This document shows, piece after piece, positions 8,920-58,634 of a stretch of DNA of 64,000 bases (positions are counted from its first letter, which is position 1; each line of letters opens with the position of its first letter). The stretch is from Eledone cirrhosa (taxonomy: Eukaryota): the NCBI GenBank assembly GCA_964016885.1, contig OZ024743.1, positions 183,830,001 to 183,894,000 on the forward strand, written 5' to 3'. A model generated the notes under the pieces. The model was not told the origin of the DNA, made no database searches, and saw nothing but the letters and a program-made list of their open reading frames with translations. A program made the position numbers and the translations under genes.

Positions 8920-8973
8920 CATACATACATACATACATACATAAATACATACATACATACATACATACATACA

Positions 8974-9354: not shown

Positions 9355-9412
9355 TACATACATACATACATACATACATACATACATACATACATACATA
9401 CATACATACATA

Positions 9413-19933: not shown

Positions 19934-20049
<116 letters not shown>

Positions 20050-20626
20050 GGTATAAATCGAAGCTGTAGCCGCAATATAGCAGATACCAATCGAATTGTT
20101 TGTGTCAGTCACAAAGCAGTCGATGGTGCAAAAAGCTAATACATTTTCGTCGAGAGTAAACAAAGTTAAGAAAGTATGACACCATGAATGAAACGACCAA
20201 GTGCATGTGTCCATATATTATAACCACAACAACGTCAAATACAAACAGGTATTTATATATAGTTCAAAGTGACAAACAAACAAATGCAGGAGTGTACATA
20301 GTTTTATTAGCTTCAGGTTTGGAGTGTACATAGTGTTATTAACTTCAGGTATGGATGAGAGTGGGGGAGGTTACGACGTTTCGGACATAAAGCCTTCATC
20401 AGGAAAGTAGGGTGGAACTCTCGGAGGAGAGGAGTTAATAGGAAAAACATGAAAGAACGGGAAAAATAGAAATAAAAATTAACATGAAAATCAAAATAAA
20501 TAAAAGCAGAATATGCATATATATTTTCATTGTAAATTTGTAACAAAAATTATTCATTATATTTCATATATATGTGTGTGTAAGCGTGTAGACACAAACT
20601 GATTATATATATAAGTATATATATAT

Positions 20627-22877: not shown

Positions 22878-22878
<1 letters not shown>
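20627..22878 (+). mobile_element. Penelope-like element, 5'-truncated, with inverted pLTR copy at the 5' junction
   Basis: RT (AGDVANLFM, YSRYVDD) and GIY-YIG endonuclease (NVVYSI...TYIGETAR, REA) in two frames over 20856-22257; 20627-20855 is the reverse complement of 22593-22822. Confidence 0.92.
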
Positions 22879-22935
<57 letters not shown>

Positions 22936-23206
22936 ATATATATATATTTGATATATATTGATATATATATATTTGATCATGCCTTTATTTTTAATTTCAT
23001 TTGCACCGTTTCCTCTCACTCCCTTTTTGCTATATGTCTCTCCACCACTCCCCTACACACCCTTTGAACTCTCTTCCCACACACTTTTCACCCGAAGAAG
23101 GGTTTATGCCCGAAACGTCGTTCCCCACCACCACCCCACTCTCAAGAGCGTGAAACTAATAAACCTTTGTTCGTACTGCCTATCTGTTTTGTTCCCGTTC
23201 AATTTT

Positions 23207-23265
<59 letters not shown>

Positions 23266-23270
<5 letters not shown>

Positions 23271-26200: not shown

Positions 26201-26587
26201 TTTGTCAAAATTGAATGTTTTCCATCTGATTCGTCGAATAAAATCATTGGTCCTTCGTATCATACCTAGAATATATTCCTTTTTTGCCTGAATAGGTATG
26301 TTTTTTAACGACATATCCAATTGGTGCCTTTCCATTTTAGAGGCGTATGCTGAATTAGTTGCTCAACTGTATAGGAGATTATTAAAATTTCAGGTTATCA
26401 ATAATGTAGTGATAATATATCGTCACGTTAGAGATGAACAGCGTACGTGTAGGTTTGCTCAACGAGTATAAATTATATTCCGGAGAAAATGTAGAAAAGA
26501 TAGGTATTCCGTCTGTTACAGAAACATATGTCAATACCTAATAAATTCCTTTAAAAAAAAAAGCATTCATTTTATATTCATCTTTTT
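23266..26587 (-). mobile_element. Full-length Penelope-like element (Naiad-like), frameshifted
   Basis: ATG at 26335 (SLKNIP), RT GIYRDD, YNPVY, CNC..CPL..C, IIY...YVG, and CKLC/C.H in an alternative frame ending near 24040. Direct pLTR repeat 23266-23381/26386-26501 plus inverted segment 26501-26587. Confidence 0.93.
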
Positions 26588-27764
26588 TATATTTTTATAT
26601 ATATATAAATATTTCTCTCTCTATCTCTCCCCCTCTCTCTCTTTGTCTCTCTCTCTCCATCCCCCCACTATAAACAATTTAATTCTCTTTAACTCACCAC
26701 ACTCTAAATCGACGACATCATGTCTACATATATCAAAACTGATCAAAGAATCCTTCCACCTCTACCTCTCCCTCCATCTCAGTTTGTCACCCTACTTCCT
26801 AATTCTTCTCCCCCTTCCTCTCTCTCTATACTACTCCCTTTGTCACTCCACTTTCTAATTCCTTTTCCTCTCTCTCTCTATACTAGCAAATACAATTCCA
26901 AAAAATGTTTTTCTCTATATTAAGAACTTGTTAAGAGTAACTTATTCACTATTTTGAAAATTTGGAGGTGTACAACAATTATTATTGAGTGGCTGCTATT
27001 TGCAGTATAGCAATATAAGGTTGCACTTACCAATGAAACGGTCGTAAATACCTGGATAAAATCCTTTTTTTAATGCTTACCTGTGTTTTCTCTTTTATCC
27101 TTTACATTCCAAGATTGAACGTGATTCTTACAAACTTGTGGAGTTACCCCTAACCATACGTCGAAACCGTCCATGAAACTGGCTGTCTTAACCACGAACT
27201 GGATTACAATAAGCAATTTTCTGCTTCCCTAACTATATATATATGTATATATGTGTGTGTGTGTGTGCGTATATCAACTTATTAACCTGTAATTGTAAGA
27301 TAGCATTGTGATTTTTTTTATTCATTTCTCACTAATTTTATATATTTTTTTATTTATTTTTTTATTTATTTCTATTATCTTTTATTGTCTCCTACTCTCA
27401 TTCGATTTACCTAGTCTATAACCTGCCTCCTCCACTTCATACACTATCCTGAGAATCTGCTGTATACATATCACTTTCAACGCATGACCGCTCCACTCAC
27501 TCCTCTATTGTTCTACAGGCAAGTCCAGCCACCCCTACCTCCCACCAAATGCCATGATAGACTTATTTGTGTTTACAAGAAATTTTAACCAATCCTCTTG
27601 ACAACTACAATCTTCCCATATAAGGAAGTACCCCTTGACAAGTTCGGCTATTTATTCACCAGACTAAACATTATAATTTATCCAGAAATAGCCCTCGAAA
27701 CGGCTTGAGCTCTGCCGTCGAGGTCATACATTTTCCTATATGTATATATATATATGATGGCTGC

Positions 27765-27845
27765 CCCCTCGTTATCGAGTATGGCCATTGCACAAGAAAA
27801 AAATAATAATAATAATAAATAAATAAAAAAAAAAAATAAAAAAAG

Positions 27846-27912
<67 letters not shown>

Positions 27913-29350
27913 CATACATATATACATACACACATACATACACATACACTCACACATATATACACACATACATTAATAACAACAATAATAATAATAAAAA
28001 TAATAATAATAGCAATAACACACACCACACACACATACACACACGATAGCAACTAACAGTGCTGCGATCGAATGTGGCTTTTTAGCCCAGCCAATGATCT
28101 AAAATGTCTTGCACAGAGTCGGCAACCAAAACATTCACTGGGAATAGTCGGCTGTGGTTGGAGTTCGTGTACTTTTGCATGTCGCTTGAGACCTCCTGCT
28201 GATTTACATTCTCTACCACATGTTTGGCAAGCATGATGAGTAGCATCTCCAACAGCAGCCTGGTAGTCAACCACTGGTCTTACTTTATGACTGCGAAGAT
28301 GACTTTCGAGTCCAGCTTTGCTTAGGCAGAGTCTCGCACAGACGCTGCATGTCAGAACCATAGGAGGACCCTCGCCGTCTGGAAGTGCAACAGCAATGCC
28401 CTTCCCCACGTCCCGCTTTACTTTCTCGTGTGCGATTCGAGATGCCTCAAAGGCAACTTTTCCCTCATATACAGTCTTTCTCCATTTATTACGATCAGCA
28501 GCAATATTTTCCCGTGTATCAGCAGAGATGTTAGCGTCTTTCAGAGAGGCTTTCAAGGAATCCTTATACCTCTTTTTTGGTTTATGTGGCGGTCGTTTTC
28601 CTTTAACCAACTCTCCATAGAGGAGTTGTTTTGGTATTCTAGAATCCTTCATCCTGACAAGGTGACCACTCCAACGGAGTCGTTGCTTAAGCACAAGAGC
28701 TTCTATACTGTCACACATAGAGCTTTCCAAAATCTCGACATCACTGATGTGGTCCCTCCAGTGAACGCCATGGATCCGTCTGAGACACATCTGATGTAAA
28801 CGCTCCAATTGCTTAAGGTGGCGTCGATATGTGACCCAGGTCTCGCAGGCATAAAGAAGACAAGAGAGTACACATGCCCTGTACACCTTTACCTTTGTCC
28901 TCCTGCATATGTGTCGCCGACCCCAGAGTCGCCTTTCCAGCTTTCCGAAAGCATCACTTTCTTTCCTAATCCTAAGTGAGATTTCACTGTCAAGGTTGCC
29001 GTATCGATTGACAGTGCTTCCCAGGTAGACAAACTGATCAACCACTCCAAGTCGTTTGCCATACACATAGATGTTTGGTTCAGTGTACTGCTTACTAGGG
29101 GCAGGTTGGTACATGACGACGGTTTTCTTGAGACTGACAGTCAAACCCAGGGCAGTGCAAGCGTCAGAAAATACATTCAAAATGTGCTGCATATCACTCT
29201 CTGTGTGCACTACAAGATCGCAATCATCTGCATACAAGAGGTCTCTTATGACTGATGTAAATACTTTTGTCTTCGCAGCAAAGCGCCTGATGTTAAATAT
29301 GCTGCCTGAGGTTCGATATCGGATGTAAACACCATGCTCGCAATTCCTGA
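27765..29350 (-). mobile_element. 5'-truncated RTE-clade LINE with three C-terminal C2H2 zinc fingers
   Basis: ORF to stop at 28053: LLYADDC, FVYLGS, CLLYACETW, RLRWSGHLVRM..RIPKQLLYGEL, three CxxC-x12-HxxxH motifs; 3' terminal hairpin ctcg-ataa-cgag. Confidence 0.93.
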
Positions 29351-29440
29351 ATGCAATACAGAAAACCATTGGTACTCTCTTTTGTTGACTCCGTGGACAG
29401 CCATAACTCTATGCTGTAAAGCAATTATAGTAATACTGGA

Positions 29441-29480
<40 letters not shown>

Positions 29481-29485
<5 letters not shown>

Positions 29486-30492
29486 TATGTATACGTACAT
29501 ACATATATGTATACAGACGTACAGTAGTATGCATATATATACATACATGCACACATATATATACGTACGTATCGATTCACCGAACATTTATTATAATGCT
29601 CGGTGTGTTTGTAAACAAACATCCCAAATTAAGCCGTACAGTGTCTAGCAACCATCGTTGCTCATTTGTTCAACACTGACAAAGGAACGCTCTACTAGTT
29701 TCAAGCTTATTAGCTATCATCAGCAACGTATACCTCCCTGCCAGATGATTGAACGTTTGAAAGTATATACTTTCCTTATGCATATTAACGGCTGAGCAGC
29801 CTAATTTGCATATCGAGTGAGTTAATCGGCCGGAGGTACCGAAAACGATAAATGGAAAAAATGAAATGAAATTTCATTTCTCACTCTTAGTACGGCTGTT
29901 ACTTAAATATTAGTATGTATACGTACATACATATATGTATACGTACAGTAGTATGTATATATATATACATACATGCACACACATATATATGTACGTATGG
30001 ATTCACCGAACATATATTATAATGCTCAGTGTGTTTGCAAACAAACATCCCTAATTTTTCCGTTTATCGTTTTCGGTATCCCGGCCGATTAACTCACTCG
30101 ATATGCAAATTAGGCTGCTCAGCCGTTAATATACATAAGGAAAATATATACTTTCAGACGTTCAATCATCTGGCAGGAAGGTATACGTTGCTGACGATAG
30201 CTAATAAGCTTGAAACTAGTACAGCGTTCCTTTGTCAGTGTTGAACAAATGAGCAACGATGGTTGCTACACACTGTACGGCTTAATTCGGAATGTTTGTT
30301 TACAAACACACCGAGCATTATAATAAATGTTCGATGAATCCATACGTACATATATGTGTGCATGTATGTATATATATATACATACTACTGTACGTCTGTA
30401 TACATATATGTATGTACGTATACATACTTATATTTAAGTAACAGCCGTACTAAGAGTGAGAAATGAAATTTCGTTTCATCTTTTCCGTTTAT
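29481..30492. repeat. ~430-bp unit in partial tandem plus inverted copy, carrying hammerhead motifs (retrozyme/pLTR-like)
   Basis: 29481-30054 holds ~1.3 direct units; 30055-30492 is one inverted unit. Confidence 0.85.
30185..30227 (+). ncRNA. Minimal type I hammerhead ribozyme motif
   Basis: acgttg-CTGACGA-tagctaataagctt-GAAA-ctaGTA-cagcgt: stem I acgttg/cagcgt, stem II agct/agct, palindromic stem III actagt. Second copy at 29687-29729 (-) with CTGATGA. Confidence 0.75.
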
Positions 30493-30828
30493 ATATATAA
30501 TCAGTTTGTGTTTACACGCTTACACACACACACACATATATATATATATGAAATATAATGTATAATTTTTGTCACAAATTCACAATGAAAATTTGACTGA
30601 GGGACTCTGTAAAAAAGATTGTTGTATTGTGTAAAGACAGTCCCCAAGTCAGTCAGATTTTCATTTTTCCATTTTTCAACTTGCTATTCTCTTTTCCCTT
30701 TCTTTCATGATAAGTATGGGTTCTACGTAATCCCGTTTTGTAATTCTGATGAGACCGTCCTGTCTTGCACCATAAATGGATGATGGAGCTGGGCCATTGA
30801 AATATGTATAGTGATTTCACGGAATTAA

Positions 30829-30988
30829 AATTTACAACATATCTTCCCGTCCGGCCTTCTGTTGTCGTTTTAAATATATTTATATGTGTGTGTGTGTGTG
30901 TGTGTGTATATATACACACACACACACACACATATATATATATTTAAAACGACAACAGAAGGCCGGACTGGAAGATATGTTGTAAATT
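30829..30988. repeat. Inverted repeat around a (TG)/(CA) centre
   Basis: aatttacaacatatcttcc.gtccggccttctgttgtcgttttaaat and its reverse complement. Confidence 0.85.
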
Positions 30989-30994
30989 ATATAT

Positions 30995-32145
30995 ATTAGA
31001 ATTGGAGCTCTGAAATAGCAATATATATATGGATGTATATATAATGTATTTTGTAATACACTTTATGCTTAATTAAAAGCATTTTGAAGACCGTATGCTA
31101 TTGTTTTAGAGTAGTGACAAATTCACTTACTTTAATCTCAGCAAACAGGGGAGATTTAAGCATAAAGTGTATTGCAAAATACATTATATATGGTGGCTGC
31201 CAACTCGTTTTCGAGTACGGCCACTACTTTATATCCATGTAGGAGAACCCCTACCGATGCGCTGAATGACTGTGACTTTTTAGTCCAGCCAGCGACTTGA
31301 AAACTCTGGTACAAACACTACACTTGTGACAATTATTGACACATAGTGCTGGGCCCATGGTACCATGTGAGGACAAGTGCAGAGAGATCTCCAGATATAA
31401 AGCAATGCCTGTGCCGTGAAGCTTTTATAGTGAGCAAAGGCACTGCACAAAGCCAGTCCCACTCTCTTAACCAAGATGATATTTACCAAAAAGAAGAACA
31501 AGTCAACATCATTGGATACCATCAGGGTTGCAGGTGTTATATCAGAGTTTTCCTTCTCCTAGAATTCTGCCTTGACAAAGGCTAAGGGGTCATCTCTCCC
31601 GGTGATTTTGGATGGCCATTGACTCTTAAGAGCTCCTTTGCCCTTTGACAGGTTTTGTTTTTAGTCCTGCAGGATGTCCAAAGTCACCCTCCTCACCAAG
31701 AAACCTTGGTGGGGTTGCCAGTTTAGTCGCCAACGACCCGACCATGAGACAGGTTGTACTGGGATACATGTTACCAGTAGCACCAACTGGTGACCTGACA
31801 TAAAACATTATATATACATCCATATATATATTGCTATTTCAGAGCTCCAATTCTAATTTTTAATTTCTGCCTGACCAACAATCGCTCTGTATAATCAGCT
31901 CCTGATTATTTATTAGAATTCTATAAGAATATAACATCAGTAATCTCAGTAGACAGGAGGGGTAGTTAGCCTTGATAAGCTTCAACAAAAGCGAAACAAG
32001 CCCCTTGTCGGCTTATCTCCCCTGTTTGCTGATATTAAAGTAAGTGAATTTGTCACTACTCTAAAACAATAACATACGGTCTTCAAAATGCTTTTAATTA
32101 AGCATAAAGTGTATTACAAAATACATTATATATACATCCATATAT
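30995..32145. repeat. pLTR-like tandem/inverted repeat with degenerate hammerhead (31968-32013), interrupted by the RTE-related element
   Basis: 30995-31155 is inverted relative to 31806-31857 and 32015-32145; motif agcc-TTGATAA-gctt..aagc-GAAA-caagccccttGTC-ggct. Confidence 0.7.
31191..31800 (-). mobile_element. Full ~610-bp non-autonomous RTE-related element
   Basis: Three copies in window; flanked by a putative target duplication acattatata; minus strand has RTE 5'UTR-like ggagaaggaaaactctga and a 3' end matching the RTE end at 27765. Confidence 0.85.
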
Positions 32146-32182
32146 ATATATATATATATATATATAATTCTTATTGTCACTT

Positions 32183-32299
<117 letters not shown>

Positions 32300-33041
32300 A
32301 GTTATAGTAAATAAAATACCTCCACGCTACAATTCTTTCCGTGGATTAAAGATGGGTATTTATTCCCTGAGGAGGTTCTAATTTGTTTAAACTGGTTAGA
32401 TCGATTCTATTTAACAGATCACTTTTATTCATTAACTTCGATCTCATTACTTTTCATAGCAAGCAGAAATGTGTATGTTATTAAAGCAGGGCTTTCCTCG
32501 AGGGCTGGTTTCCTTCTAGAGTCAGCTGAATATTGTCACCCCGATGTTTATAAGGGTCATGTATGAACAGTCCCTATTTATTTTGGAATAGACATTGGCA
32601 TATGTTGCACAAGAGTCTAGGAAGAGGGCGTAGCCTATTCATCATCACTCTCCTTTCGGTGCATTGTTGATCATCATGGAGCCCTCCTCGGTGTTTGAAC
32701 CCTTAAAAACAGCTTTCGTTCAAGTTTTACTATTTGCAGCTGATTTCTGCCAGGATCAATGATGACTCTAGTTGATCCTAAAAAAGATCGCTTGGTTACA
32801 CAGCGGGATTATAGTGAACAAATCATCACATCAAACCCAGGAAACTAATATTCAATCTACTGCTACTATGTGTCGGTGACGGCTCCTTATAGAAGGAGGA
32901 GAATTTGAAGTTGGGGGACACAGAGCCATATCAGATACACTAAAGTATTCAGATATTACTATAGTTTTAGCAATGCTTCTCCACCTAGATACATGTATTA
33001 ATGTACATACACACATACATACATGCACACACACACACAAG

Positions 33042-33144
<103 letters not shown>

Positions 33145-33164
33145 CAAAATATATATATATAACA

Positions 33165-36100
33165 AAACTTGTTAAACGTAATGCATATATCACCCTTAAA
33201 GATCACAAACCTGACTTTATTAATCGTCCTAGTTGTAGATTAATCAACCCTGCTAAGACTGATATTGGTCTCGCCAGCAAAAAAAAATTTTAAATAATAT
33301 AAATACACATATTAGAAGTAAGTCTAAATTACTCCAATGGATAAATAGCTCTTCCGTAGTACATTGGTTTAATAAAATTAATAACAAAAATAGTTCTAGA
33401 TTCACCCAATTTGACATTGTAGATTTCTACCCATCTATCACTCAGACTCTTTTAGCGAAAGCTTTAAATTTCGCTAGTGAGTTTACCAATATCTCTGATA
33501 TTGAAGAGAATGTCATCTTGCACGCTAGAAACACTCTACTCTTTACTGATAATGACACTTGGGTAAAAATATCTAACCCAGAGAGCCCATTCGATGTCTC
33601 AATGGGCTCTTATGACAGTGCTGATGTTTGTGATTTAGTCGGCCTATTCCTCCTACACACACTTAAAGTAAAATTCCCTAATCATATTTTTGGGCTTTAT
33701 CGTGACGATCGTCTAATACTTTCCCATACTACCATAGGCCATAACTTAGATAGATTAAGGAAAGACCTAATAAAAACCATTGCTAGTTTTAATCTTAAAA
33801 TTACTATTGACACTAACCTTTCTAATGTAAATTTCCTAGATATAAACCTATATTTGCCTACTGCTTCTTATAAACCATACCATAAACCTAATGAAAATTT
33901 AAAATATATAAATAAAGGCTCTTGCCATCCTCCTATAGTTTTTAAAAACTTTATCCCTAATATTAGCCGTAGGATCTCCACCCTCTCTTCCTCATAAGCT
34001 ATTTTCAATAAGGCATCCCCCTACTATAATAAAGCCCTCCAAAATAGCGGTTTTAGCGAACCGATTAAATACATACCCAACTATACTAACTCTAATAAAC
34101 ATAATAACAGGAAAAGAAAAATAATCTGGTTCACACCCCCCTACTCTCTAGCAGTTAAAACTAATGTAGGCAAAAAATTCCTAGAGCTCTTAGATAAACA
34201 TTTCCCTAGAACACAAAGATACTATAAGATCTTTAACAGAAACTGTGTCAAAATTAGCTACTCCCGCGGTCCCCCCTATTAAATCTTATATAATCAACAA
34301 AAAATCACCTAGAGAACATCAAAATTACTCCTGTAGAATCAAAAGTGAATGCCCATTACAAGGTAAATGCAACACCAAAGCCATTGTATATGCGGCTAAA
34401 GTGACAACCATCAGCAACAACCAACCAGCCACCAGTGAACGATATGTGGGTATGACGCAAGACAAATTCAAAACGCGTTATTACTCACATGTCGCATCCT
34501 TTCGACACCCAGAAAAAAGATTTACAACAGCTCTGGCTAGCAGAATATGGGATTTGAAAGACCAAGGTATCCAATATAAATTGGATTGGTCAATTTTGAA
34601 CCAATCTAAAGAATATGCAAGAGGAACAAGAAAATGCACGCTCTGCATAAATGAAAAATATTGGATTTTACAAAACCTTAAATCACCAAAGACCTGCCTA
34701 AACACAAAGACAGAAATTTTCACCAGTTGCCCACACATGAAATCACACCTGCTTTCCAGCTCATATAAACTTAACACACTTTCAGATACTTATCCTCCAT
34801 AAGCTCTTATTCTTCACTCAAATTATTCTCTTTAAGTTTACCTTTTCTGATTTATTTTTATTTTTATTTTTATTTTTATTTTTATTTTTATTTTTATTTT
34901 TATTTTTACTTCACACACACCCCACTACCCCCTCCCCTACACACTTTACTCTCCGATTCACTACCTAATATCTTCACTTTCCACCTTTTACTTCCCTATT
35001 TTCTTCACTACCTGATTACACAAGTCATTTGCGTTTTCCACTCCAGATATTTTCTGTTATTTAGCAGCCAGTTTTATATTTTTATATTTGCACTCACTCA
35101 TTCATAAGGCTGTTTTTACACCCTGTATCTATGTGTCTGAGCGTCTTTACGTGTGTATACTTTCTGTATATGTACACGAACGCCTCCGTATGTACGCGCG
35201 CGTGCGTGTGTATATATATATATATATATATATGTGTGTTTGTATGTGTGTTTTTATATCTGTGTCTTTACATCTATGTTTTTGTACATTCTTATTTTTA
35301 TGTGCGTGCATGTTAGCGGGTCAACGTGCGTGAGTGTATATATGTGTGTGTGTGTGAGTGTGTGCGTACTGCATATATGGATGTGTATGTGTGCGTATGT
35401 ATATATATATGTGTATATATGTATTTATGTGTGTGTATGTGTTGTGTGTGTATACAGTCGCGTACGTATGCGTATTAGATATACACGGGGCGATGTATAT
35501 GTATATATATATGTGCATCCTATGTGTGTATGTACGTTTGCATACGCTTTTGTCTGCACCTTTTGCGTGTGTATATATATATTTTTTTTATAGATATGTT
35601 TCTTTTAGATATATGTATGTATGTACGCGTGTACCTTGTTTGTTTTCTTTTCTTTACTTTGCAAATTTATTGTTCCATTTTTATAATTATATTGATATTG
35701 ATACTTTCTTTTTACTATTACATTCCCTTACCTCTTTTTCTTCCGCATATAAGTGTACGCGCGTGCGTGTGTGTTTATACGCGTGCCCTCATATTCTTAT
35801 AATGTATCTAACACCCTGTTTTCTCTGTATACCTGTCAAACAGACACTTATATCATGTGTGTGTCTATCGTTACATATATACATATATTTACGCACACAT
35901 TTTCACTATACACACGCATTCGTACATATATACATATGTATATCTGTGAGTCTATATACATACATATACACACACCTAAATATATTTCTTAAAATATTTT
36001 TTTTATATATTTTATATTTTATATGTCTATTGTATTACCTTCATCTATATATATATAATTTTTCTTACATTTCTTGAGGAGACTTTCAAAATATTTATCT

Positions 36101-36285
36101 ATGTTTTATATTGCCTCGTCCGACGAACGAATGAAGACGTCTCTTTCGTATTCGTCTTATTCGGGAAACCTCTGGTAATGAGGTAATTATTTTGTATTGA
36201 TTTTTATACATTAAATTTTGCTCTGGTACTTACATAGAGCACTCTTCACTCCTATGATTTTTTTCTATTTTCAACGGAAACTTCA

Positions 36286-36290
<5 letters not shown>
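33165..36290 (+). mobile_element. 5'-truncated Penelope-like element (Naiad-like) with long microsatellite-rich 3' UTR/pLTR
   Basis: [67 protein letters not shown]; stops and frameshifts; coding ends at 34802. Confidence 0.92.
36111..36186 (+). ncRNA. Type I hammerhead motif in pLTR (core variant CCGACGA)
   Basis: ttgcctcgt-CCGACGA-long stem II-GAAA-cctctgGTA-atgaggtaa; 9-bp stem I including G-U pairs. Confidence 0.65.
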
Positions 36291-36338
<48 letters not shown>

Positions 36339-36589
36339 TCTATATCCAACATTGATGAAGGAGATGATTGAGTCGGTTGACAATTTCTGGTAAAGAATAA
36401 TGATCATTCTGCATAAAAATATTAACCACAGTTCGTGTGTGTGTGTGTGTGTATGTATATATACACCTATGTGGTTGGCGGCTGAGAGAAAAGAGTACTC
36501 AATACCGAAGTAGAGTTTTAATATTAATTTTATTAAGGCTAAATAGTGAGTTTTTTTTTACTTTGGAGTTTCGCCTGTTTATCACAGGG

Positions 36590-36657
<68 letters not shown>

Positions 36658-36662
<5 letters not shown>

Positions 36663-37102
36663 ACGTCAAAACGGCCTGTCTCAAAAGTGAAACTAATTTT
36701 TGACAGTTACGTACACGTTATAAGAGTTATTTAAATTTATATATATAAAATAAAGGAGCAAATAAGAGCATGATATGAAGTCAGTCATGTGTGTGTGTAT
36801 ATATGTGTGTGTGTGTGTAAACGAATGTAAAATAATATAGGTAGGGCATAGATAAGGTTTCCTAGAATTTTACACACACACGTGTATAAATTATAGTGTG
36901 TATGTGTGCATATATAAGTGTATATGTGTGTGTACTTTTACATTCGTTTCCACACATATATACACACACACACATGACTGACTTCATATCATGCTCTTAT
37001 TTGCTCCTTTATTTTATACATATAAATTTAAATAACTCTTATAACGTGTACGTAACTGTCAAAAATTAGTTTCACTTTTGAGACCGGCCGTTTTGACGTA
37101 TG

Positions 37103-37104
<2 letters not shown>
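36658..37104. mobile_element. MITE/foldback element with ~175-bp TIRs in (TA)n
   Basis: Ends ggcatacgtcaaaacggcc / ggccgttttgacgtatgcc; second copy at 62749. Confidence 0.85.
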
Positions 37105-37162
<58 letters not shown>

Positions 37163-37645
37163 CTGACCTGGAAATCCCTGAATTTAACTTATTTAACTTG
37201 AAAACCACCAAATTCGACAGTCAAATTTTTTTCATTTTCAGAGGCCCTGAAGTTAAACATAAACATTAAATGACCACATACAGTTATAAACAAACAAACG
37301 GTTTCCCAAGGCAAGGGAGATACTTTGAGATTGTAATGGTTTCATCAATTTACTTACTACAAAAAACAAAAAAAATATTTGTTCCAAAAATATTTAGATG
37401 CCATGTATGCATAGCCGAACTTTTGGACTGTCACGAAGCGTTGATGGGATAAAGTTAATATAAAGTGTGGTGTGCTCATCAACGGAGATGCTATAAAATA
37501 GAGTAGATACCCTTAAAGACTGAAAAAGAAGTCTTTAAGGGTCTACAGCCTAATTTACTAGCTATTTTATATTTATATTAACTTTATATTAATTCTAGAT
37601 GTTAATTTAACTATTAATAATACAATATACATATCACTATTAATG

Positions 37646-37829
37646 GTGAATTGGCAGTATCGGTAGACGGTCGGACGCCATGCTTTGACGCATAGAGTTA
37701 CGGCCCTTGCCATTCTGAGTTCAAATCCCGCTGATGTTAACTTTGCCTTTCATCCTTACGGGGTCGATAACATAAAGTACCAGTAATGAACTGGAATAAT
37801 TGCTGGCCTTGTGCCAATAATAGAAACAA
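37646..37829 (+). mobile_element. tRNA-derived SINE (Octopus OR-like)
   Basis: A box tggcagtatcgg, B box gagttcaaatcc, conserved core gcctttcatccttacggggtcgataa. Confidence 0.85.
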
Positions 37830-38027
37830 CTATCAATGTAAGTAGTGCTTCTAATGTAGCTATTTATAAAGATTATAAGCTCAACTATATCATTTTCTAC
37901 TATTAGCTGAAACTTCGAAGTCACTGCCATTTTTCTACCAAGAAAATAACATTTCTTCACTCTGCCTACCGGTATTGAGTGCCCAGTTAGTTAATGTTTG
38001 CATGTTTTAAGTACTACATTCATACAT

Positions 38028-38065
<38 letters not shown>

Positions 38066-38070
<5 letters not shown>

Positions 38071-39467
38071 ATCAAAAGATGGTTAAAAGAGTTCCATGTA
38101 TTTTATTATGCGCATTTCAAAAACAAATATCATCATGCGATAACATTTGCGTTTTCGTCAGATAAAATAGGGAGACATGATATGAAGGTTAAAAAACACT
38201 TGTGAATAGTGCAGTTTTAAATCAACATATGAAAAGTAGTTTTAGATTGATGTGTGATATTGGGGAAAAATTGAGGGGGGGGGGGGTGAAAAAGAGGAGG
38301 AGATGAGAGTAAAACATGGAGGGGGAAGAGTATAATGAGAAAGGATGAGATAGGAGGAGAGATGGGTGATAGAGAGAGAGAGATAGCTTTTATAACTGAG
38401 AAAAATATATTGTTTTACATAGAGAAGTTAAAAAACCGTTGGAAGATAATATATAAATTAAAAGAATTTGAAAATTAACGAAGAGAAAAATTTTAGAATA
38501 ATGTTAAATTAAGGTTTGTATATTGAAGGGTTTAATAATATGTGCGATGAAAAGAAATTGTTAATATGTATTAAGAATAATATTTAAGGGTTTAATAATA
38601 TGTGCGATGGAAAGAAATTGTTGATATGTGTTATTAAAAAAATATAAAAATATAACAATAGTAATGTAATTAAGGATATATTGTGAAAAGAAGTAGAAGA
38701 GTGGATGAAAAAGTGTAATATGTATAAGTTAGATGAGCATGAAAGGGAGAAAAAAATAATGAATTGAGGATAAATAATCTAACGTCAAAAAAATGTTTAT
38801 GTTTACGAAGGATTTTTCAAGGTGATATTATAAAGTAAGGATATATTGTGCTGAGTAATAATGAGAATTGAGAAGTATCTAGGAAGAAAAGGTACAGATT
38901 AGAGGTTAGAAATTAAAAGAAAAAGAAAAAAGGAAAAAAGAAAGAAAGGGAAGTGATAAATAGTAGTGATATAGAATGAGTAACTAGTATTATATAATGT
39001 ATAATAAATAACATTGAAATAAGGTAGAAAGATGGGTATATTTTTAAAGAAATATATATGTATATATATATATATATATATATGTGCCTTTGAGAAAAGG
39101 ATTTTAAATTGGTAAAGTATTAGATATTAGCTGTATACTTTATGGAATGTTCTGTGGAATTTATGCAAGCAGAGAGAAAACAAGTCAGTGCGTCTATTTA
39201 TTATAGAATCCAAATTAGATATAATGGTAAATTTTTCACATAAACAGAGATTGCATGTCTTGGATAGAGAACCATTCAAGTATGGAGAAGCAGAACAAAC
39301 CTTCTTCCAAGAGATGTTATAGTTAATATTTTTGTCTTTCAAGGACCACATGAGTTCTGAGAGTGCCGTGTTGGTTCTTTTAATTTGGTATTTAAAAGAC
39401 GAATGATGATTATAAAGACGAGCTTTATTGTACTACTGCTTTATTGTACTACAATAAAACTCACCTC
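38066..39467 (-). mobile_element. 3' fragment of a Naiad-like Penelope element with pLTR
   Basis: 39127-39420 encodes TALSELMWSLKD..ISW..CNLCLCEK..CLH; pLTR 38066-38231 is inverted relative to 43733-43898; 39422-39467 is an inverted pLTR-end piece. Confidence 0.85.
38100..38168 (-). ncRNA. Minimal type I hammerhead motif
   Basis: attttat-CTGACGA-long stem II (gcat loop)-GAAA-tgcgcATA-ataaaat. Confidence 0.75.
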
Positions 39468-39469
39468 GT

Positions 39470-39508
<39 letters not shown>

Positions 39509-39537
39509 GTTATGTAATAAACAACATAAGATAATTA

Positions 39538-39598
39538 TTTCATTTACCAGTGGTTTCTTGAAAGCAAGCAAAATTTGCTTTCAGTCATCAGAATGAAA
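39538..39598 (-). ncRNA. Type I hammerhead motif in solo pLTR
   Basis: tttcatt-CTGATGA-c tgaaagca..tgctttca a-GAAA-ccactgGTA-aatgaaa. Confidence 0.7.
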
Positions 39599-39726
39599 AA
39601 ATCCTGGTGTATTTATTGACAGTGGATAACACACACACGCACACACACATATACATACACACATATATTCATATATACACATATACATATATATATACAT
39701 ACACACATATATACATACACATACAA

Positions 39727-39786
<60 letters not shown>

Positions 39787-40112
39787 ACATACACATACAC
39801 ATAAACACATACACATATATATACACACACATATACACGCATACATACGCACACACATATATAGATATATATACACACACCTACATACGCACATACACAA
39901 TTAATTATTTTTAAAAAAACAATGAACAAACATATAAGGCAATAGGCCGTCACATAAAAATAAAAAATATACGACCTAAGAAAATAAAAATTATTATAAA
40001 GTTGACAGCGATACAGGAAAGGACACAAATAAATAAACAAACACACGTGGTAAGCAATACACACATCTACACATACACATACATACATATAAATATATAC
40101 ATACACACACAC

Positions 40113-40171
<59 letters not shown>

Positions 40172-40527
40172 CATACATATACACACACATATATATATAT
40201 AAGAAAATACATAAATATTATATATATATAAAAATAAAAATAAAAATAAAAATAAAAAGGTGGAAGGAGTAAACAAATAGTTGGGAATACGACAAATAAT
40301 AAATAAATAAATAGATAAAGGTATAAATGTTTATAGCTGATTTAGAGCACTCAACAAGTTCCTGGAGAAAATAATCAATGACAATTAAATCACTCTGTAT
40401 GTAATTATGCATATACATTCACATATATACATACACACACACACACACACAACCATACAAATATATATATATATATATATAGGAAAAAGTATGACCCCGA
40501 CGGCAGAGCTCAAGCCGTTTCGACGGC

Positions 40528-40566
<39 letters not shown>

Positions 40567-40710
40567 TATTTAAAGGTTAAACAAGGTTCAATGAATTAAT
40601 CAAAGAATTAGTTTTACAATAGATTGGAAGCACTCAACAGTGACGGTTTTCCGGAGTTATTAATATTAATTCAAAATATTAACAAAAATAGACATTCGTG
40701 TGATCAAGTA

Positions 40711-40777
40711 TATTTTATTATACATATTTCAGAGGTACTGAGCTATCTTCAACAGTATGTCCTCATCAGATAAAATA
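40711..40777 (-). ncRNA. Type I hammerhead motif
   Basis: tattttat-CTGATGA-ggacatactg..cagtacctct-GAAA-tatgtATA-ataaaata; perfect 8-bp stem I. Confidence 0.7.
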
Positions 40778-41682
40778 AGATGATGCATGACATACCCTGA
40801 CATAGTAGATGGTTAAGATTCAGTCATGGTAGTGAATATGATATGACAAGACTCAATATTTATATACCTTAAGATTGTGACATGAAAAAACTTACATATA
40901 ATACAGAGGGTGCGTGTGAGAAAGCTTAAAAATACATAATAGCAATTTACATAACTGTTAGAGATTCAAATAATTTAAATTATTGAAAAAGGAAGAAAGA
41001 AAGAAAGAAGAAAGACAGGGAGAAACAGATGAGGAAAAGATATAGTTACTAGAAGTATAGAAAGCAAAAGAGAATTGATCAAGGATAGAGAGACAAAAGG
41101 GGAATAATTTTTATAGTATAAAGCATAGATAGATATACATTTGGGCATAGCTTTGTGAAAGAGTAAACTCAAATCTTTGAATTATCTAGAAGTATCCATC
41201 TATCTAAATATTAAATATATCTCGGTGTAATTATATGAGGGTTTAATTTCGAGTCCTCAATTAATAAGAAATATACTAACAATTATTTATACACCATATA
41301 TATCCAAACTTATTCGGCTGACCGTTAAATTTCAAATTCCTTATGTTAGTTCAGAATAATGGATTAAACTAAAGGTATAATATTTCAGGCTATAAAAGTT
41401 TATAAATGTCTATATTAATATTAAAGTATACTAACATATTTAATTTATAAAATCATATTTAAAGTATTTTCAAACATGAGAAAGAAACTTAGTATTTTCA
41501 TCCACATGAAGGTATTAATAATATAAGATATTAAATTATATTATCTTATATTATTTTCCCATACTAAAATAATTCTCACTATATAATTTAGAAAATAATT
41601 ACAGTTATAACTTTAAAAATTTAAAATTAACAATTAGAATGTCCTAAAGCATCTAAAGGTGCAAGAAGAAGCGGCCGGACAA

Positions 41683-41948
41683 ACTCCGGTATTTGTTTAT
41701 TTTACGTTCTTCTGCGAGGTGGGCCGCGATGCCAGGGTTTGTGGCCGAAGCGACTAAGTTGGAGGCAGAGAACGTATCGCAGCAGGTGGCATCCCAGATG
41801 AGGGATCTACCTCCTTCGGATGGGAAGAGGGTGATTCCGTCGGCGCGCTTGCCATCTTCACGGTCTAGGCCTGCTGGCTCCAGTTGAGACGGAAAGCCAG
41901 CTGCGTCCAGGGTCCTTCTCAGTATGACGTAGAGAGCGGCGTGTCGGG
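41683..41948 (-). mobile_element. CRE-like retrotransposon RLE fragment
   Basis: Minus translation RHAAL..LEPAGLDREDGKRADGITLFP..GRSLIWDATCCDT..ERKINKY. Confidence 0.85.
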
Positions 41949-41949
41949 A

Positions 41950-43728
41950 TAAATAACATTACTAATTGTTCACAATTCTTTCAGAGGGAAAGGGAAAACA
42001 GGGGAAAAAAAAGAAAGGCAAAGAAAGAGAAAAGAAAAAAAAAACACAGAAGCGGTTAGCACACATATCCGGGACCACATACAACAAAGGACAGGCGAAA
42101 GGGGTGGACAACTGAGTCGCTACCAGAGTAAAAGATAACAGTATCGCGAGGAGCACTGGGAAACCTCTCTAATGATTTTTGAGCCAAGCCAGCACGCTAG
42201 CAACGTTATCTCGGGTGATAGCGAGGCTGAGGTGCTGGAACAATCAAGCGCCCCCACGAGCTTCACCAGTTACCTCTGTTTGGCGAGCTACCAGTGAAGA
42301 TAGGAATCTCGCAGTCAGTAGCCCGACTCCACCAAATACCTCGAACGCCACAGGCTGAAAAATGTAATTGGCCGACAGATTACGGTATTTTAGGATTTTG
42401 TTCCGTTTGGCTGCGGAAGCTGTGGCTCTCGCCCTAACCGTAGCATCCAGGATGCGGGAAGAAGCAAAAGAGTCACTAACTGTGATGTCCCAGACAAGGG
42501 ATCTGCCTCTCGACCAGGGGCACAGGGTAAGTCCGTCAGGTCTTTTCCCATCAATTCTGGATAATCCAGATGGTTCCAAGATTGAGGGATATTTGCCCGG
42601 ACCAAAGATCTCTTGAGAATAAGGTTTAGCCTCACGTGACGCCCGAAGCGACCGGCATTCAGGCAGCAAGAAAGACCGTGGAGTTGAGGAGTTTGCTACA
42701 TCGACATCTCAGACCCGTACAGACGTCAGCTCACACTCTGAGGGCAATGGAAACGCGAAGTTCGTCCAAGCTGAGTGGGCCACCAATGTTAGCCACGGGT
42801 AGGGCGTCAACCCAGTCGCCTGAGTATTTGGCGCTGGCAGACAGTAAGCGGCACCTTGAAAACTGATCTGACTAGTCGAAGAGGGAGTCGAAGGTGGCCT
42901 TCGAACTTATGCTGTCCCAAGCTCTCTGACTTTGACTGTCCTCCACCTTGTCAGGAATAGATAAACCCAACTCACTCCATTGTTGGAGAGGTTCATCCAA
43001 CTCCCTGTTGGAACTAGTCCATGTTGGAGAGGAGAGGATGCTGCTCACCCGGGTGGAGCAAGCGTGGGTGGAGGAAAGGAAGCAGGGGAGAGAGAGGGAC
43101 GAACATTTACGAAGACCAAGACCCCCAAATCGCTTTGGCAACGCAGCCTGATCGCGGGACTCTGGAGAGAGTCTGACATTGACCAAACACTCGAGTCTCT
43201 CGAAGATTAGGTCGTTGAAGCGTTGGAGGCAGGACGAAAATCTGATCCTGAGCATATATAGAAGCTTAGGAATCGAAAGGTAGTTTCTGAGTATGAAAAA
43301 ACCTTGATGGGGTTCGATTGCTTCAATATTCTTTAGCAACTGTTCAAGGCCAACCATCTTCGATTGGAAGATTGACTCGAAGGCAAGGTCTGTAATTGGG
43401 GATCCTAAGGAGTATCAAACCGACGGGGGAGGGCAGTAATGGAAGAGAAGGACTTTGTTAAGAGGTCAATTGTCTGTTGAGGTTGAGAGGCCGACTGGTT
43501 GAGGATCCAGAGCTCACATTTGGCGCTATTAACCTGGAGACCTCCAACAACCAAGCTCCTCAACCATTTTAGTGATGTCATCAATACCCAGTGCAAATAG
43601 AGCGGGTCTGAGTGGGTCGCTCTGTTGGACTCCTGAGGCAGAGGTGATCATTTTGACACCAAAAGAGAGGTAGGAGGGCTCCTGATAAGCCTGCCAAGAA
43701 AAGTGGTACAGCTGTGGACCTTCTCTCT
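41950..43728 (-). mobile_element. 5'-truncated, decayed CRE-like retrotransposon (RT to RLE)
   Basis: GVQQSDPL.PALFAL, GLQVNSAKCE, QAALPKRFGGLGLR, DGKRPDGLT..WDITVSD, KILKY, FQPVAFEVFG. Confidence 0.9.
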
Positions 43729-43732
43729 CAAC

Positions 43733-43986
43733 ATATGTTGATTTAAAACTGCACTATCAACAAGTGTTTTTTTAGCCTTCATATCATGTTCTCCTGTTTT
43801 ATCTGATGAAAACACAAATATTATTGCTTGATGATGTTTGTTTTTGAAATGCGCATAATAAAATATATGGAACTCCTTTAACCATCTTTTGATCTTATAT
43901 TATGCATACTCCAGTCCCACAAACTGTAGAGTGCTTCTTATCCGATATCTGCATTGCTTTATTGTACTACAATAAAACTCACCTCC
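43733..43986 (+). mobile_element. Solo Penelope pLTR
   Basis: Reverse complement of 38066-38231; terminal 31 bp identical to 39437-39467. Confidence 0.75.
43797..43863 (+). ncRNA. Minimal type I hammerhead motif
   Basis: ttttat-CTGATGA-long stem II-GAAA-tgcgcATA-ataaaa; predicted cleavage after 43857. Confidence 0.75.
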
Positions 43987-44085
<99 letters not shown>

Positions 44086-44150
44086 ATGCGTGCGTGCGCG
44101 TGCGTGTGTGCGTGTACGTTATACATGAGAATGCATGCACACATACAATA

Positions 44151-46109
44151 ATGCTCATTGTAACTCTTTACTTTGTATCCGCAGTTCTTCTGGTGAGACC
44201 AACTGGACGACGTGTTAACCGTATCAACATCAAAGAAAGATTACATTACAATTACCGACAGAACAAAGCAAATACACTTCCAGATATCTTTGGTCTGATG
44301 CCACCGAATAACTTCGATGTTGTGGATCAATTCAACACAAGCCAGGGCCTCCAGATCTTAAAGCTGCAACAATTATACAAAAACATTCCAATCTACGATG
44401 GAACACTTTCAGTTGTAATCGAATCGAACGGTAAGCTGACCAGTTTGGCAAGCGGTTCTGCTATTCAAGGATTGAGTTCCTATTATTACTGGGATAGGTT
44501 ATTGTCAGCGACATTAACAGAAGTAGAAGCGTTAGACATTGCTATCAACTCTGCACAACACAGCCATCTTAGAAACTATATTTATAATTATAGTTTACAC
44601 AGAAAGATTTACGTTGATGATTTCGGTGACGTAAGTTTAATATACGAAATTGATTATTTAATATATACTGATAGTGTGGTTAAGCGGCCAGCATTTCTTG
44701 TAAACGCTCACACTGGAGGTATTTTGCTTCAGTGGTCGAAACTAAATACTTTGGCTGACCACCATTTACTCACTGGTCACGGTGGTAACGAGAAAAGTGG
44801 TACGTTTGTTTACAGCAGAGACGATAGGAAAGTTTTTGTGAAGAGGAACCATGGAAATACCTGCTTTCTGGAGAACGAATACGTCAAAGTTCTCAACCTT
44901 AGTGAACGGTCAAGTTACAGAGATACTAACAATGTCGTCAGCTATAAATGCTTCGATAATTTCAACGATTCAGTCAATGGCGCTAAGTCGCCAGCTCGAG
45001 ATGCCTTGTATTATGGTAGCGCGCTTTTTGAAATGTTTCTCTCCTGGTACGGGACTGAAATTTTGCGAAACAAATTGATAATTGGGGTATACTGTAATAT
45101 TGACAATGCATTCTGGGACGGAAAACAATGCAATTTTGGCAACGGAGGAGATCTTTCTTATCCTTATACAGTTGCTGATATTATAGGTCATGAAGTGGCA
45201 CACGGCTTCACCGAACAGCATTCATGTCTTTTGAATTTTGGACAGTCAGGATCTATGGATGAATCATTCTCCGACATAACAGGTGAAACTTTAGAAGCAT
45301 ATCTCGGACAAAATGACTGGTCAATAGGAAATTTTATAACGAAATCTGACGACAAAGGATTTAGATTTTTGGATGATCCTTCAAAGGATAACATTTCTGT
45401 AAACCATTATAATAATTATACAGAGAACTTAGACCCTCATTTTGGTTGTGGTATCTATAACAAAGCGTTCTACTATGTAGTTCAGGATTATAAAGTTCCA
45501 ATCAAAGACGCCTATCACGCATTTATGTTAGCTAATCGTTTGTATTGGCATCCAACATCGAATTTCTCAACAGGAGCCTTTGATATTTTGCGGGCGGCTT
45601 ATTATATTGGTCTTGATGTTAACCCATTTAGAATGGCTTTTCACCTGGTGGGCATTAAAACTTCTATTCTAACGAACGACATTTATTTACTGGACACAAA
45701 CAAAACATTTTCTGATATAAAAGTTGGTGACGGTAAAACTCCACTTTTTTCTTTCAATCCTTCATTTTGTATATCTGCTATGGTAATTCAAGCAAATTCT
45801 AACAATCACCACACTATTCATATTAAAGTAACTAAGCCAGACGACATTATTTTTCATTTTAACATTAATAAAACAGATGATACAACCTTCCATATTAAAG
45901 TTCATAAACCGGACCTTGTACTGAATAATACGTGCTTCCTAATTGAAGGTGTTAATAGAATCAAACTGTTCGGAGACTTGCCTATGATAAATCGAATTCA
46001 CATTGAACTTATTTCAAAGACATTTCTTTTGACTGACGTTACTTTAAACGTTTCCTGTGAGTACAAATACTATTATAATCAAGAAGGTCATACAAACCTT
46101 GTAAAGTGA
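44151..46109 (+). CDS. Peptidase M4 family (thermolysin/pseudolysin/vibriolysin-like) zinc metalloprotease preproprotein
   Basis: Open 652-codon frame: hydrophobic N-terminus, FTP-like LQQLYKNIPIYDG, PepSY-like RPAFLVNAHTG, GHGGNEKSG, VNGAKSP, NAFWDG, HEVAH, GSMDESFSD, DPHFGCGIYNKAFY, ANRLYW. Start uncertain (ATG 44151 or splice acceptor at 44183-44184). Confidence 0.92.
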   Translation: MLIVTLYFVSAVLLVRPTGRRVNRINIKERLHYNYRQNKANTLPDIFGLMPPNNFDVVDQFNTSQGLQILKLQQLYKNIPIYDGTLSVVIESNGKLTSLASGSAIQGLSSYYYWDRLLSATLTEVEALDIAINSAQHSHLRNYIYNYSLHRKIYVDDFGDVSLIYEIDYLIYTDSVVKRPAFLVNAHTGGILLQWSKLNTLADHHLLTGHGGNEKSGTFVYSRDDRKVFVKRNHGNTCFLENEYVKVLNLSERSSYRDTNNVVSYKCFDNFNDSVNGAKSPARDALYYGSALFEMFLSWYGTEILRNKLIIGVYCNIDNAFWDGKQCNFGNGGDLSYPYTVADIIGHEVAHGFTEQHSCLLNFGQSGSMDESFSDITGETLEAYLGQNDWSIGNFITKSDDKGFRFLDDPSKDNISVNHYNNYTENLDPHFGCGIYNKAFYYVVQDYKVPIKDAYHAFMLANRLYWHPTSNFSTGAFDILRAAYYIGLDVNPFRMAFHLVGIKTSILTNDIYLLDTNKTFSDIKVGDGKTPLFSFNPSFCISAMVIQANSNNHHTIHIKVTKPDDIIFHFNINKTDDTTFHIKVHKPDLVLNNTCFLIEGVNRIKLFGDLPMINRIHIELISKTFLLTDVTLNVSCEYKYYYNQEGHTNLVK

Positions 46110-46174: not shown

Positions 46175-46180
46175 AATAAA
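46175..46180 (+). promoter_or_regulatory. Candidate polyadenylation signal of the M4 gene
   Basis: AATAAA 66 nt after the stop, with further copies near 46200 and 46216; weak evidence in AT-rich DNA. Confidence 0.35.
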
Positions 46181-46285
46181 AATATAAAATGAAGCTGAGA
46201 ATAAAAAAAAATGGAAATAAAAAGAGAAGATAAAAGTGTAATAGTGTATGCTCAGTAGTTTTATTTACTCTAATATTTCGTGTGT

Positions 46286-46757: not shown

Positions 46758-46819
46758 TACAGACACACACACAACACAAACAGGCTTATACACATACACT
46801 CTCCCTAATGAGGAAAGAG

Positions 46820-57043: not shown

Positions 57044-58634
<1,591 letters not shown>

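What the first reader, a model, noticed from the sequence alone, without database searches (positions are those of the whole stretch)
44151..46109. Intact bacterial-type M4 metalloprotease in an animal genome: candidate horizontally acquired secreted protease
Seen: a ~2 kb uninterrupted ORF with HEVAH, the downstream zinc ligand in GSMDESFSD, DPH and a Cys pair in the mature N-terminus. It is embedded in animal microsatellites, SINEs and PLEs, and is intact while the neighbouring transposons are truncated or decayed. Known: M4 proteases with signal-FTP-PepSY-catalytic layout are mainly bacterial; from memory the motif series parallels Pseudomonas LasB and Vibrio vibriolysin (GPGGN, VNGAYSP, NAYWDG, HEVSH, ANRYYW). 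Inference: a domesticated horizontal transfer, possibly with a digestive, salivary/venom or hatching role. I recall M4-like predictions in other molluscs, so the transfer may be ancient rather than unique.
Basis: partly seen in the sequence, partly recalled or inferred. Interest (0 to 1): 0.8.

Follow-up and report, generated by a model that had tools for sequence, protein, structure and literature searches.

The report
Ancient bacterial-type protease family in molluscs
This is a real, spliced and conserved octopus gene for a zinc protease of the type made by marine bacteria, one of eight copies in the genome, and its family was likely taken over from a bacterium before the main mollusc groups split, although its job in the animal is untested.

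Summary
The protease is real, but the gene model needs correcting. 44151-46109 is an open frame of 652 codons for an M4 zinc peptidase of the LasB/vibriolysin subgroup. It is exon 2 of a spliced gene. Exon 1 (18873-18921) is joined to 44185 across a 25,263-bp GT-AG intron in one contig of a public run, so the ATG at 44151 lies in the intron. Contamination is excluded: Octopus orthologues have the same 657-aa length, dN/dS is about 0.14, and GC matches the host. Eight copies exist. Candidate first exons of three paralogues give the same phase-1 intron site. Relatives in chiton, gastropods, bivalve and Argonauta form a clade at 100/100, so any transfer is ancient, not octopus-specific. A bacterial origin is likely, but the donor and nesting are unresolved (AU p=0.30). 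The octopod orthologue has lost the conserved active-site Tyr and gained a private Cys pair. Tissue and substrate are unknown. Databases already annotate the orthologues as 'elastase-like'; 10 paper searches found no study of animal M4s.

The parts
18873..18921 (+). Exon 1, coding part: ATG, 16 codons plus 1 base (phase 1), encoding most of the predicted signal peptide; followed by a GTAAGT donor. The 5' UTR may reach about 18700 if the 222 loose bases are unspliced (inferred).
   Evidence: The loose end of contig X4 matches 18892-18921 and its 21-mer is unique in the genome; the translation matches the N-termini of the Octopus orthologues.
18922..44184 (+).
44165..44184 (+). Polypyrimidine tract and CAG splice acceptor
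   Evidence: sequence; contig X4 alignment begins at 44185
44185..46109 (+). Exon 2: end of signal region, propeptide, catalytic domain, C-terminal domain and stop; spliced product 657 aa
   Evidence: same length as XP_014782361 and XP_036357344
44310..44447 (+). FTP propeptide motif (residues 54-99)
   Evidence: Pfam PF07504, E 1.4e-8
44502..44744 (+). PepSY-like second propeptide domain (about residues 118-198), by homology; predicted self-cleavage near residues 205-207
   Evidence: aligns to pro-elastase; PepSY not hit in this protein, hit weakly in the C2 paralogue (0.0012) and in relatives
44766..45659 (+). M4 catalytic domain (residues 206-503): Zn ligands H347, H351, E371; catalytic E348; H430; R405; Ca-site D343/E379/E382/D389; disulfide pair C238/C267
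   Evidence: the roles of residues follow the LasB alignment, with LasB numbering recalled
45225..45449 (+). Octopod-specific active-site changes: C359 (45225), N362 in place of the conserved Tyr (45234; LasB Y155 equivalent), C433 (45447)
   Evidence: C359 and C433 occur in 5 of 342 distinct rows, all orthologues; Tyr in 329 of 342, Asn in 7 of 342
45660..46070 (+). All-beta C-terminal domain, likely a diverged PPC (pre-peptidase C-terminal) domain with an insertion
   Evidence: a profile of mollusc C-termini hits bacterial PPC regions at 1e-8 among 482 sequences; paralogues hit PPC below the cut-off; model; no direct pairwise or PDB hit
46175..46221 (+). Candidate polyadenylation hexamers at 46175, 46200, 46216
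   Evidence: use not shown

Best explanation
This is a spliced, conserved two-exon octopus gene for an M4 zinc protease of the LasB/vibriolysin type, likely descended from a marine-bacterial gene acquired before the mollusc classes diverged, and predicted to be secreted as a self-activating zymogen that digests extracellular protein. Shown: exon structure, domain order, intact Zn ligands and catalytic Glu, purifying selection, eight paralogues, and a pan-mollusc clade. Inferred: the short exon 1 supplies the signal peptide; the FTP/PepSY propeptide chaperones and inhibits the enzyme until self-cleavage near residue 206, as in bacterial M4s (PMC10017501, section 4.3); the PPC-like tail binds insoluble substrate; and the enzyme most likely works on food, mucus or matrix protein outside cells. 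The Tyr-to-Asn change and the private Cys pair likely give this orthologue altered or reduced catalysis.
For: Splice junction and exon 1. Orthologues of identical length in O. bimaculoides and O. sinensis; identity 89% in the catalytic domain against 74-77% in pro and tail regions. dN/dS 0.14 against organism B: 13 nonsynonymous and 23 synonymous changes over 198 codons, P=7e-8. Exon GC 36.7% against window 36.6%. Eight loci on four chromosomes, all with open catalytic frames. A phase-1 acceptor 11 codons before the same N-terminal motif in all 7 other copies, and a candidate exon 1 with donor in 3 of 4 copies searched. Mollusc clade with chiton, Haliotis, Patella, Pomacea, Pinctada and cephalopods at 100/100, 98 and 99. 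All sit in the LasB/vibriolysin group, split from thermolysin-type outgroups at 100/99. Of 30 clusters looked up, 9 were named molluscs, 2 bacteria, 19 had no taxon, and none was a named fungus, plant or protist. Confident model, pLDDT 86.
Against: Nesting inside proteobacteria is not established (AU p=0.30). Monophyly of all animal-like rows is only not rejected (p=0.48); it had 87 support and was broken by two bacterial rows. The splice rests on one contig of depth 3.8 from a run not on record as RNA, with only 30 loose letters shown. Paralogue first exons are predictions, none was found in 10 kb upstream of one C27 copy, and signal-peptide introns could arise independently. The signal peptide is atypical and no predictor was run (hydropathy only). 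dN/dS uses 36 of 117 differences, propeptide only. No tissue, substrate or activity data exist.
Confidence: 0.72

Rival explanations
1. The family was inherited vertically from an early eukaryote (or through the mitochondrial ancestor) and lost in most eukaryotes.
For: The AU test does not reject animals lying outside the proteobacterial rows (p=0.30). 15 unnamed eukaryote-like rows branch near the base, and their taxa could not be named.
Against: No named non-animal eukaryote appeared among 30 clusters looked up or among the named rows of three homologue searches. The domain order, including PPC, is the one seen in the gammaproteobacterial hits. The one arthropod entry is flagged as contamination and falls among bacteria.
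Confidence: 0.12
2. There were two or more independent transfers (for example, the window/C2 lineage and the C25/C27 lineage separately).
For: The two lineages are deeply separated, and their union has only 80 support and is unresolved.
Against: Both lineages have a phase-1 acceptor and candidate exon 1 at the same position. One clade is not rejected.
Confidence: 0.1
3. This orthologue is now a weak or non-proteolytic protein (binding or regulatory) kept for another job.
For: The Tyr equivalent to LasB Y155 is Asn (Tyr in 329 of 342 rows), two new Cys flank the cleft, and this species has also lost both Cys of the C-terminal disulfide that its orthologues keep.
Against: All Zn ligands, the catalytic Glu, His430, Arg405 and the Ca site are kept, and the catalytic domain is the most conserved part.
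Confidence: 0.15
4. It is a venom or salivary component, or a hatching enzyme.
For: It is a predicted secreted protease. The O. vulgaris posterior salivary proteome contains metalloproteases (PMC7693380, passages).
Against: No entry for the orthologue accession, 'thermolysin' or 'neutral protease' in that paper's supplement (file cut). No mention in PMC7656900 main text. The family is shared with abalone, limpet, chiton and pearl oyster.
Confidence: 0.15
5. It is bacterial contamination, or a recent octopus-specific insertion.
For: Exon 2 is a 1.9-kb intron-free block with bacterial best structural matches.
Against: It has a 25-kb spliceosomal intron, a DNA contig running from the gene into the host repeat, orthologues on 168-182 Mb chromosomes, host-like GC, and a pan-mollusc clade.
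Confidence: 0.01

Closest known systems
Pseudomonas elastase LasB / vibriolysin / MCP-02 / Legionella ProA (peptidase family M4, Gram-negative subgroup)
   Same: Signal-FTP-(PepSY)-catalytic order, HEXXH plus Glu 20 residues on, His, Arg, Ca site and N-terminal disulfide; a PPC-like tail as in vibriolysins.
   Different: It is a nuclear animal gene with a phase-1 intron in the signal region and 11 N-glycosylation sequons. Y155 is Asn, the S1' positions differ (F129 to Ser, L132 to Tyr), there is a private Cys pair, and the tail is strongly diverged.
Database-annotated mollusc M4 proteins (XP_014782361 'elastase' O. bimaculoides; XP_036357344 O. sinensis; Haliotis 'elastase-like' and AJF36072 'metalloprotease'; Liolophura 'neutral protease-like')
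   Same: Direct orthologues (about 81% identity) and family members.
   Different: These are automatic names. No paper on origin, gene structure or function was found in 10 searches. This copy lacks the C-terminal disulfide pair that the Octopus orthologues keep.
Other ancient bacterium-to-animal enzyme transfers (bilaterian alpha-amylases PMC7003070; msp130 PMC11878542; search listing and start of abstract only)
   Same: An old, patchily distributed animal gene family of proposed bacterial origin.
   Different: A different enzyme class; here the donor is unresolved.

Membership tests
Peptidase M4 (thermolysin family) | HEXXH motif with two Zn-binding His and catalytic Glu | tested here: met
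   H347, E348, H351; invariant in 342 of 342 rows
Peptidase M4 (thermolysin family) | Third Zn ligand Glu about 20 residues downstream (gluzincin) | tested here: met
   E371 and D375
Peptidase M4 (thermolysin family) | Pfam Peptidase_M4 and M4_C above the curated cut-offs; beta N-domain plus helical C-domain | tested here: met
   67.3 against 22.4 bits and 77.9 against 24.4 bits; model secondary structure
Peptidase M4 (thermolysin family) | Preproenzyme: signal peptide plus FTP/PepSY propeptide | tested here: inconclusive
   FTP met; PepSY by alignment only; signal peptide judged by hydropathy only
Peptidase M4 (thermolysin family) | Transition-state His and Tyr (thermolysin H231/Y157; LasB H223/Y155; numbering recalled) | tested here: inconclusive
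   His430 kept; Tyr replaced by Asn362. 13 of 342 rows lack the Tyr, so it is not strictly defining
Peptidase M4 (thermolysin family) | Zn-dependent endopeptidase activity and autoprocessing | not testable with these tools
   needs a biochemical assay
Vibriolysin/LasB subgroup | Groups with Gram-negative M4s apart from thermolysins; N-terminal disulfide | tested here: met
   100/99 split from Bacillus and Streptomyces outgroups; C238/C267
Vibriolysin/LasB subgroup | C-terminal PPC domain (vibriolysins) | tested here: inconclusive
   no Pfam hit in this protein; profile link 1e-8; paralogues 6e-4 and 0.023, below the cut-off; Atlas 0.84, a lead only
Horizontally acquired animal gene | Integrated in the host genome and domesticated (intron, host composition, purifying selection) | tested here: met
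Horizontally acquired animal gene | Nested with support inside a bacterial clade | tested here: inconclusive
   nested in the best trees, but the alternative is not rejected, p=0.30
Horizontally acquired animal gene | Absent from non-animal eukaryote outgroups | tested here: inconclusive
   none named among 30 clusters looked up, but 19 carry no taxon

The most novel reading that the evidence does not exclude
An early animal ancestor captured a vibriolysin-type protease from a marine bacterium once, fitted it with its own signal-peptide exon through a phase-1 intron that all octopus copies still share, and expanded it into an undescribed animal protease family. Its members are still changing specificity: the C27 tandem copies differ almost only in the catalytic domain, including S1' pocket positions, and this orthologue has rebuilt its active site with Tyr-to-Asn and a private Cys pair.
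Probability: 0.45. Interest if true: 0.7.

Novelty: new variant of a known kind. Interest (0 to 1): 0.52.

Why it matters
M4 proteases are treated as bacterial nutrition and virulence enzymes, including those of Vibrio pathogens of molluscs (PMC9785129, abstract and passages). A host-encoded family of the same subgroup, present in chitons, gastropods, bivalves and cephalopods, would add a protease class to the mollusc repertoire and would date a bacterium-to-animal transfer to before the mollusc classes split. It would also mean that 'vibriolysin/elastase' reads in mollusc data are not automatically bacterial. The shared intron gives a testable marker of a single origin. The active-site variants are natural experiments on M4 specificity. 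Interest is held down because the orthologues are already annotated in databases, ancient transfers into animals are a known kind of event, and function is unknown.

Tried and rejected
The longer 735-aa ORF from 43902 runs through a microsatellite and is chance. An in-frame ATG and apparent signal peptide in the C2 paralogue is probably also intron, since a better exon 1 lies about 13.9 kb upstream. No exon-1 candidate was found in 10 kb upstream of one C27 copy (L026); copies L003, L004 and L008 were not searched for one. Sequencing-run search: no RNA holder listed; parts of exon 2 lack X4 cover; neither is evidence on expression. The search for related loci in prokaryote genomes found nothing (pattern-based, close relatives only). 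The search meant to name the non-mollusc eukaryote-like rows returned no taxa. The careful 96-row tree did not finish, so the quick tree was used; 6 of 360 sequences were dropped for short coverage, and several rows labelled bacterial are unnamed. Direct comparison of the tail to PDB or to a bacterial PPC gave nothing. No fold search was obtained and the model gives no coordinates, so a C359-C433 disulfide is untested. Positive selection in the C27 copies: pN/pS 0.7-1.5, none of 6 pairs significantly above 1. Paper searches found no study of animal M4s. Term look-ups in PMC12773714, PMC7656900, PMC7693380, PMC5995198, PMC12756402 and PMC5736985 (passages; supplements for two) were negative. 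Subscription papers and bioRxiv supplements are not covered. Earlier scan findings: nothing on this protein.

Full report
Observation. Pfam gives FTP, Peptidase_M4 and Peptidase_M4_C above their cut-offs. Among 25 PDB sequences matched, Pseudomonas pro-elastase is best (1e-65), followed by other Gram-negative M4s, with thermolysin far behind (4e-19). An AlphaFold model from an 86-row alignment has mean pLDDT 86, with propeptide, beta-then-helical catalytic domain and an all-beta tail. The window lies on a chromosome-scale contig of a 3.0-Gb genome whose closest named relatives for this gene are Octopus species.

The gene is spliced. Bases 44165-44184 read as a polypyrimidine tract plus CAG. 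A 359-nt contig from run X4 matches 44185-44321 without error and then leaves the stretch for 222 letters. The 30 loose letters shown match 18892-18921, and a 21-letter part of them occurs once in the whole genome. That position ends an ATG-initiated exon of 16 codons plus one base, followed by GTAAGT. The intron is 25,263 bp, GT-AG, phase 1. The spliced product is 657 aa, the length of the O. bimaculoides and O. sinensis orthologues, whose N-termini match exon 1. Organism B has a 2-nt deletion at 44167 and only 3-nt indels inside exon 2. Caveat: X4 is not on record as RNA, and the joint rests on one contig of depth 3.8.

It is a maintained host gene. A DNA contig of run X1 runs through the gene into the downstream high-copy repeat. 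Exon 2 GC is 36.7% against 36.6% for the window. Of 117 differences to organism B the tool listed 40; the 36 coding ones, over 198 propeptide codons, are 23 synonymous and 13 nonsynonymous, dN/dS about 0.14, P=7e-8. Identity to Octopus orthologues is 89% in the catalytic domain and 74-77% elsewhere.

It is one of a family. Two searches found 8 loci on C2, C4, C25 and C27 (four clustered within about 56 kb plus one more), all with open catalytic frames. All 7 other copies have an AG acceptor in phase 1, 11 codons before the same N-terminal motif. It was flagged by script for five, seen in the extended frame for L008, and seen by eye for the C2 copy, where the O. sinensis model departs from the genomic reading at that point. 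Candidate first exons of 15-16 codons plus one base, with GTGAGT or GTAAGT donors, were found for 3 of 4 copies searched, at about 4.0, 5.2 and 13.9 kb. These are predictions. They span the deepest split among the copies, which argues for one intron gained once, though signal-peptide introns could recur.

Age and origin. Of 30 clusters looked up from the top 150 representatives, 9 are named molluscs (Octopus, Argonauta, Liolophura, Haliotis x3, Patella, Pomacea, Pinctada), 2 are bacteria and 19 have no taxon. Trees of the catalytic domain put the window gene in a mollusc clade at 99 (FastTree, 360 rows), 98 (IQ-TREE quick, 96 rows) and 100/100 (careful, 43 rows). The C25/C27 copies form a second clade. 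Fifteen unnamed rows that look eukaryotic (many paralogues on megabase contigs) branch nearby, so the family may extend beyond molluscs; I could not name them. All lie in the LasB/vibriolysin group, split from thermolysin-type outgroups at 100/99. The base is unresolved: one clade of all animal-like rows is not rejected (p=0.48), and neither is a tree with them outside the proteobacteria (p=0.30). Presence in chiton, gastropods, bivalve and cephalopods is shown. Bacterial origin is inferred from the bacterial domain order and from the lack of named non-animal eukaryotes; no donor can be named.

How it likely works. By homology to ProA and LasB (PMC10017501, first part of section 4.3 read), the protein would be exported, folded with help from its inhibitory propeptide, and self-cleaved near residue 206. 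Zn ligands, catalytic Glu, His430, Arg405 and the Ca-site acids are kept (LasB numbering recalled). The tail is likely a diverged PPC domain: a profile of mollusc tails hits bacterial PPC regions at 1e-8 among 482 sequences and paralogues hit PPC below the cut-off, but direct comparisons fail. A C-terminal pro-domain is said to help vibriolysins hold substrate (PMC9785129, passage). I commit to extracellular digestion of food, mucus or matrix protein as the most likely job, at about even odds against the rivals. The orthologue group is unusual: the Tyr present in 329 of 342 rows is Asn, and Cys359 and Cys433 occur together in exactly the 5 octopod orthologues. This species has also lost both Cys of the C-terminal disulfide. 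Altered specificity or lower activity is likely, but untested.

Function evidence is thin. No tissue is known. The O. vulgaris salivary proteome supplement had no matching entry (file cut when stored), and an octopod venom-genomics paper does not mention M4 in its main text. These are weak negatives.

Novelty. Orthologues carry automatic database names such as 'elastase-like' and 'neutral protease-like', and one abalone member is deposited as 'metalloprotease'. Ten literature searches found no study of animal M4 proteases; the library lacks most subscription papers. Ancient transfers of enzymes into animals are a known kind of event (PMC7003070, PMC11878542; listings and abstract starts only). 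Verdict: a real member of family M4, best described as an apparently undescribed animal variant of the vibriolysin type, of ancient and probably horizontal origin; interest 0.52.

Noticed in passing
L003-L006 (G000:C27:5.22-5.28 Mb): Four tandem M4 copies are nearly identical in propeptide and tail, but in 5 of 6 pairs 26-43 of 29-48 differing codons fall in the catalytic domain, including S1' pocket positions (LasB 129 Y/E, 132 L/F, 137 I/M) and the residue after the catalytic His (Y/H/E); pN/pS 0.7-1.5, not significantly above 1. This suggests diversifying specificity with homogenised flanks.
   Followed up: partly
L008 (G000:C27:8972805-8976455): An M4 paralogue with a long Asn/Asp/Glu/Lys-rich tandem-repeat insert (about 350 aa) at the propeptide/mature junction, frame still open.
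   Followed up: no
window 1-4378 and 46817-48678: Minisatellite arrays: 48-bp unit x91 and 39-bp unit x48, giving long chance ORFs.
   Followed up: no
window 7395-12311: Two adjacent partial copies of a non-LTR retroelement (RVT_1 2e-24 for 9572-11530), one nearly full RT.
   Followed up: partly
window 28053-29369 (-): Non-LTR RT remnant with C-terminal C2H2 zinc fingers inside the M4 intron.
   Followed up: partly
window 57772-58224 (-): Tc1/Sleeping-Beauty-like transposase N-terminal fragment.
   Followed up: partly
window 43770-43990 versus 38090-38230 (inverted) and 39420-39470: The stretch just upstream of the acceptor recurs, inverted and in part, elsewhere in the same intron; probably a dispersed repeat (seen by eye).
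   Followed up: no
   Followed up: no
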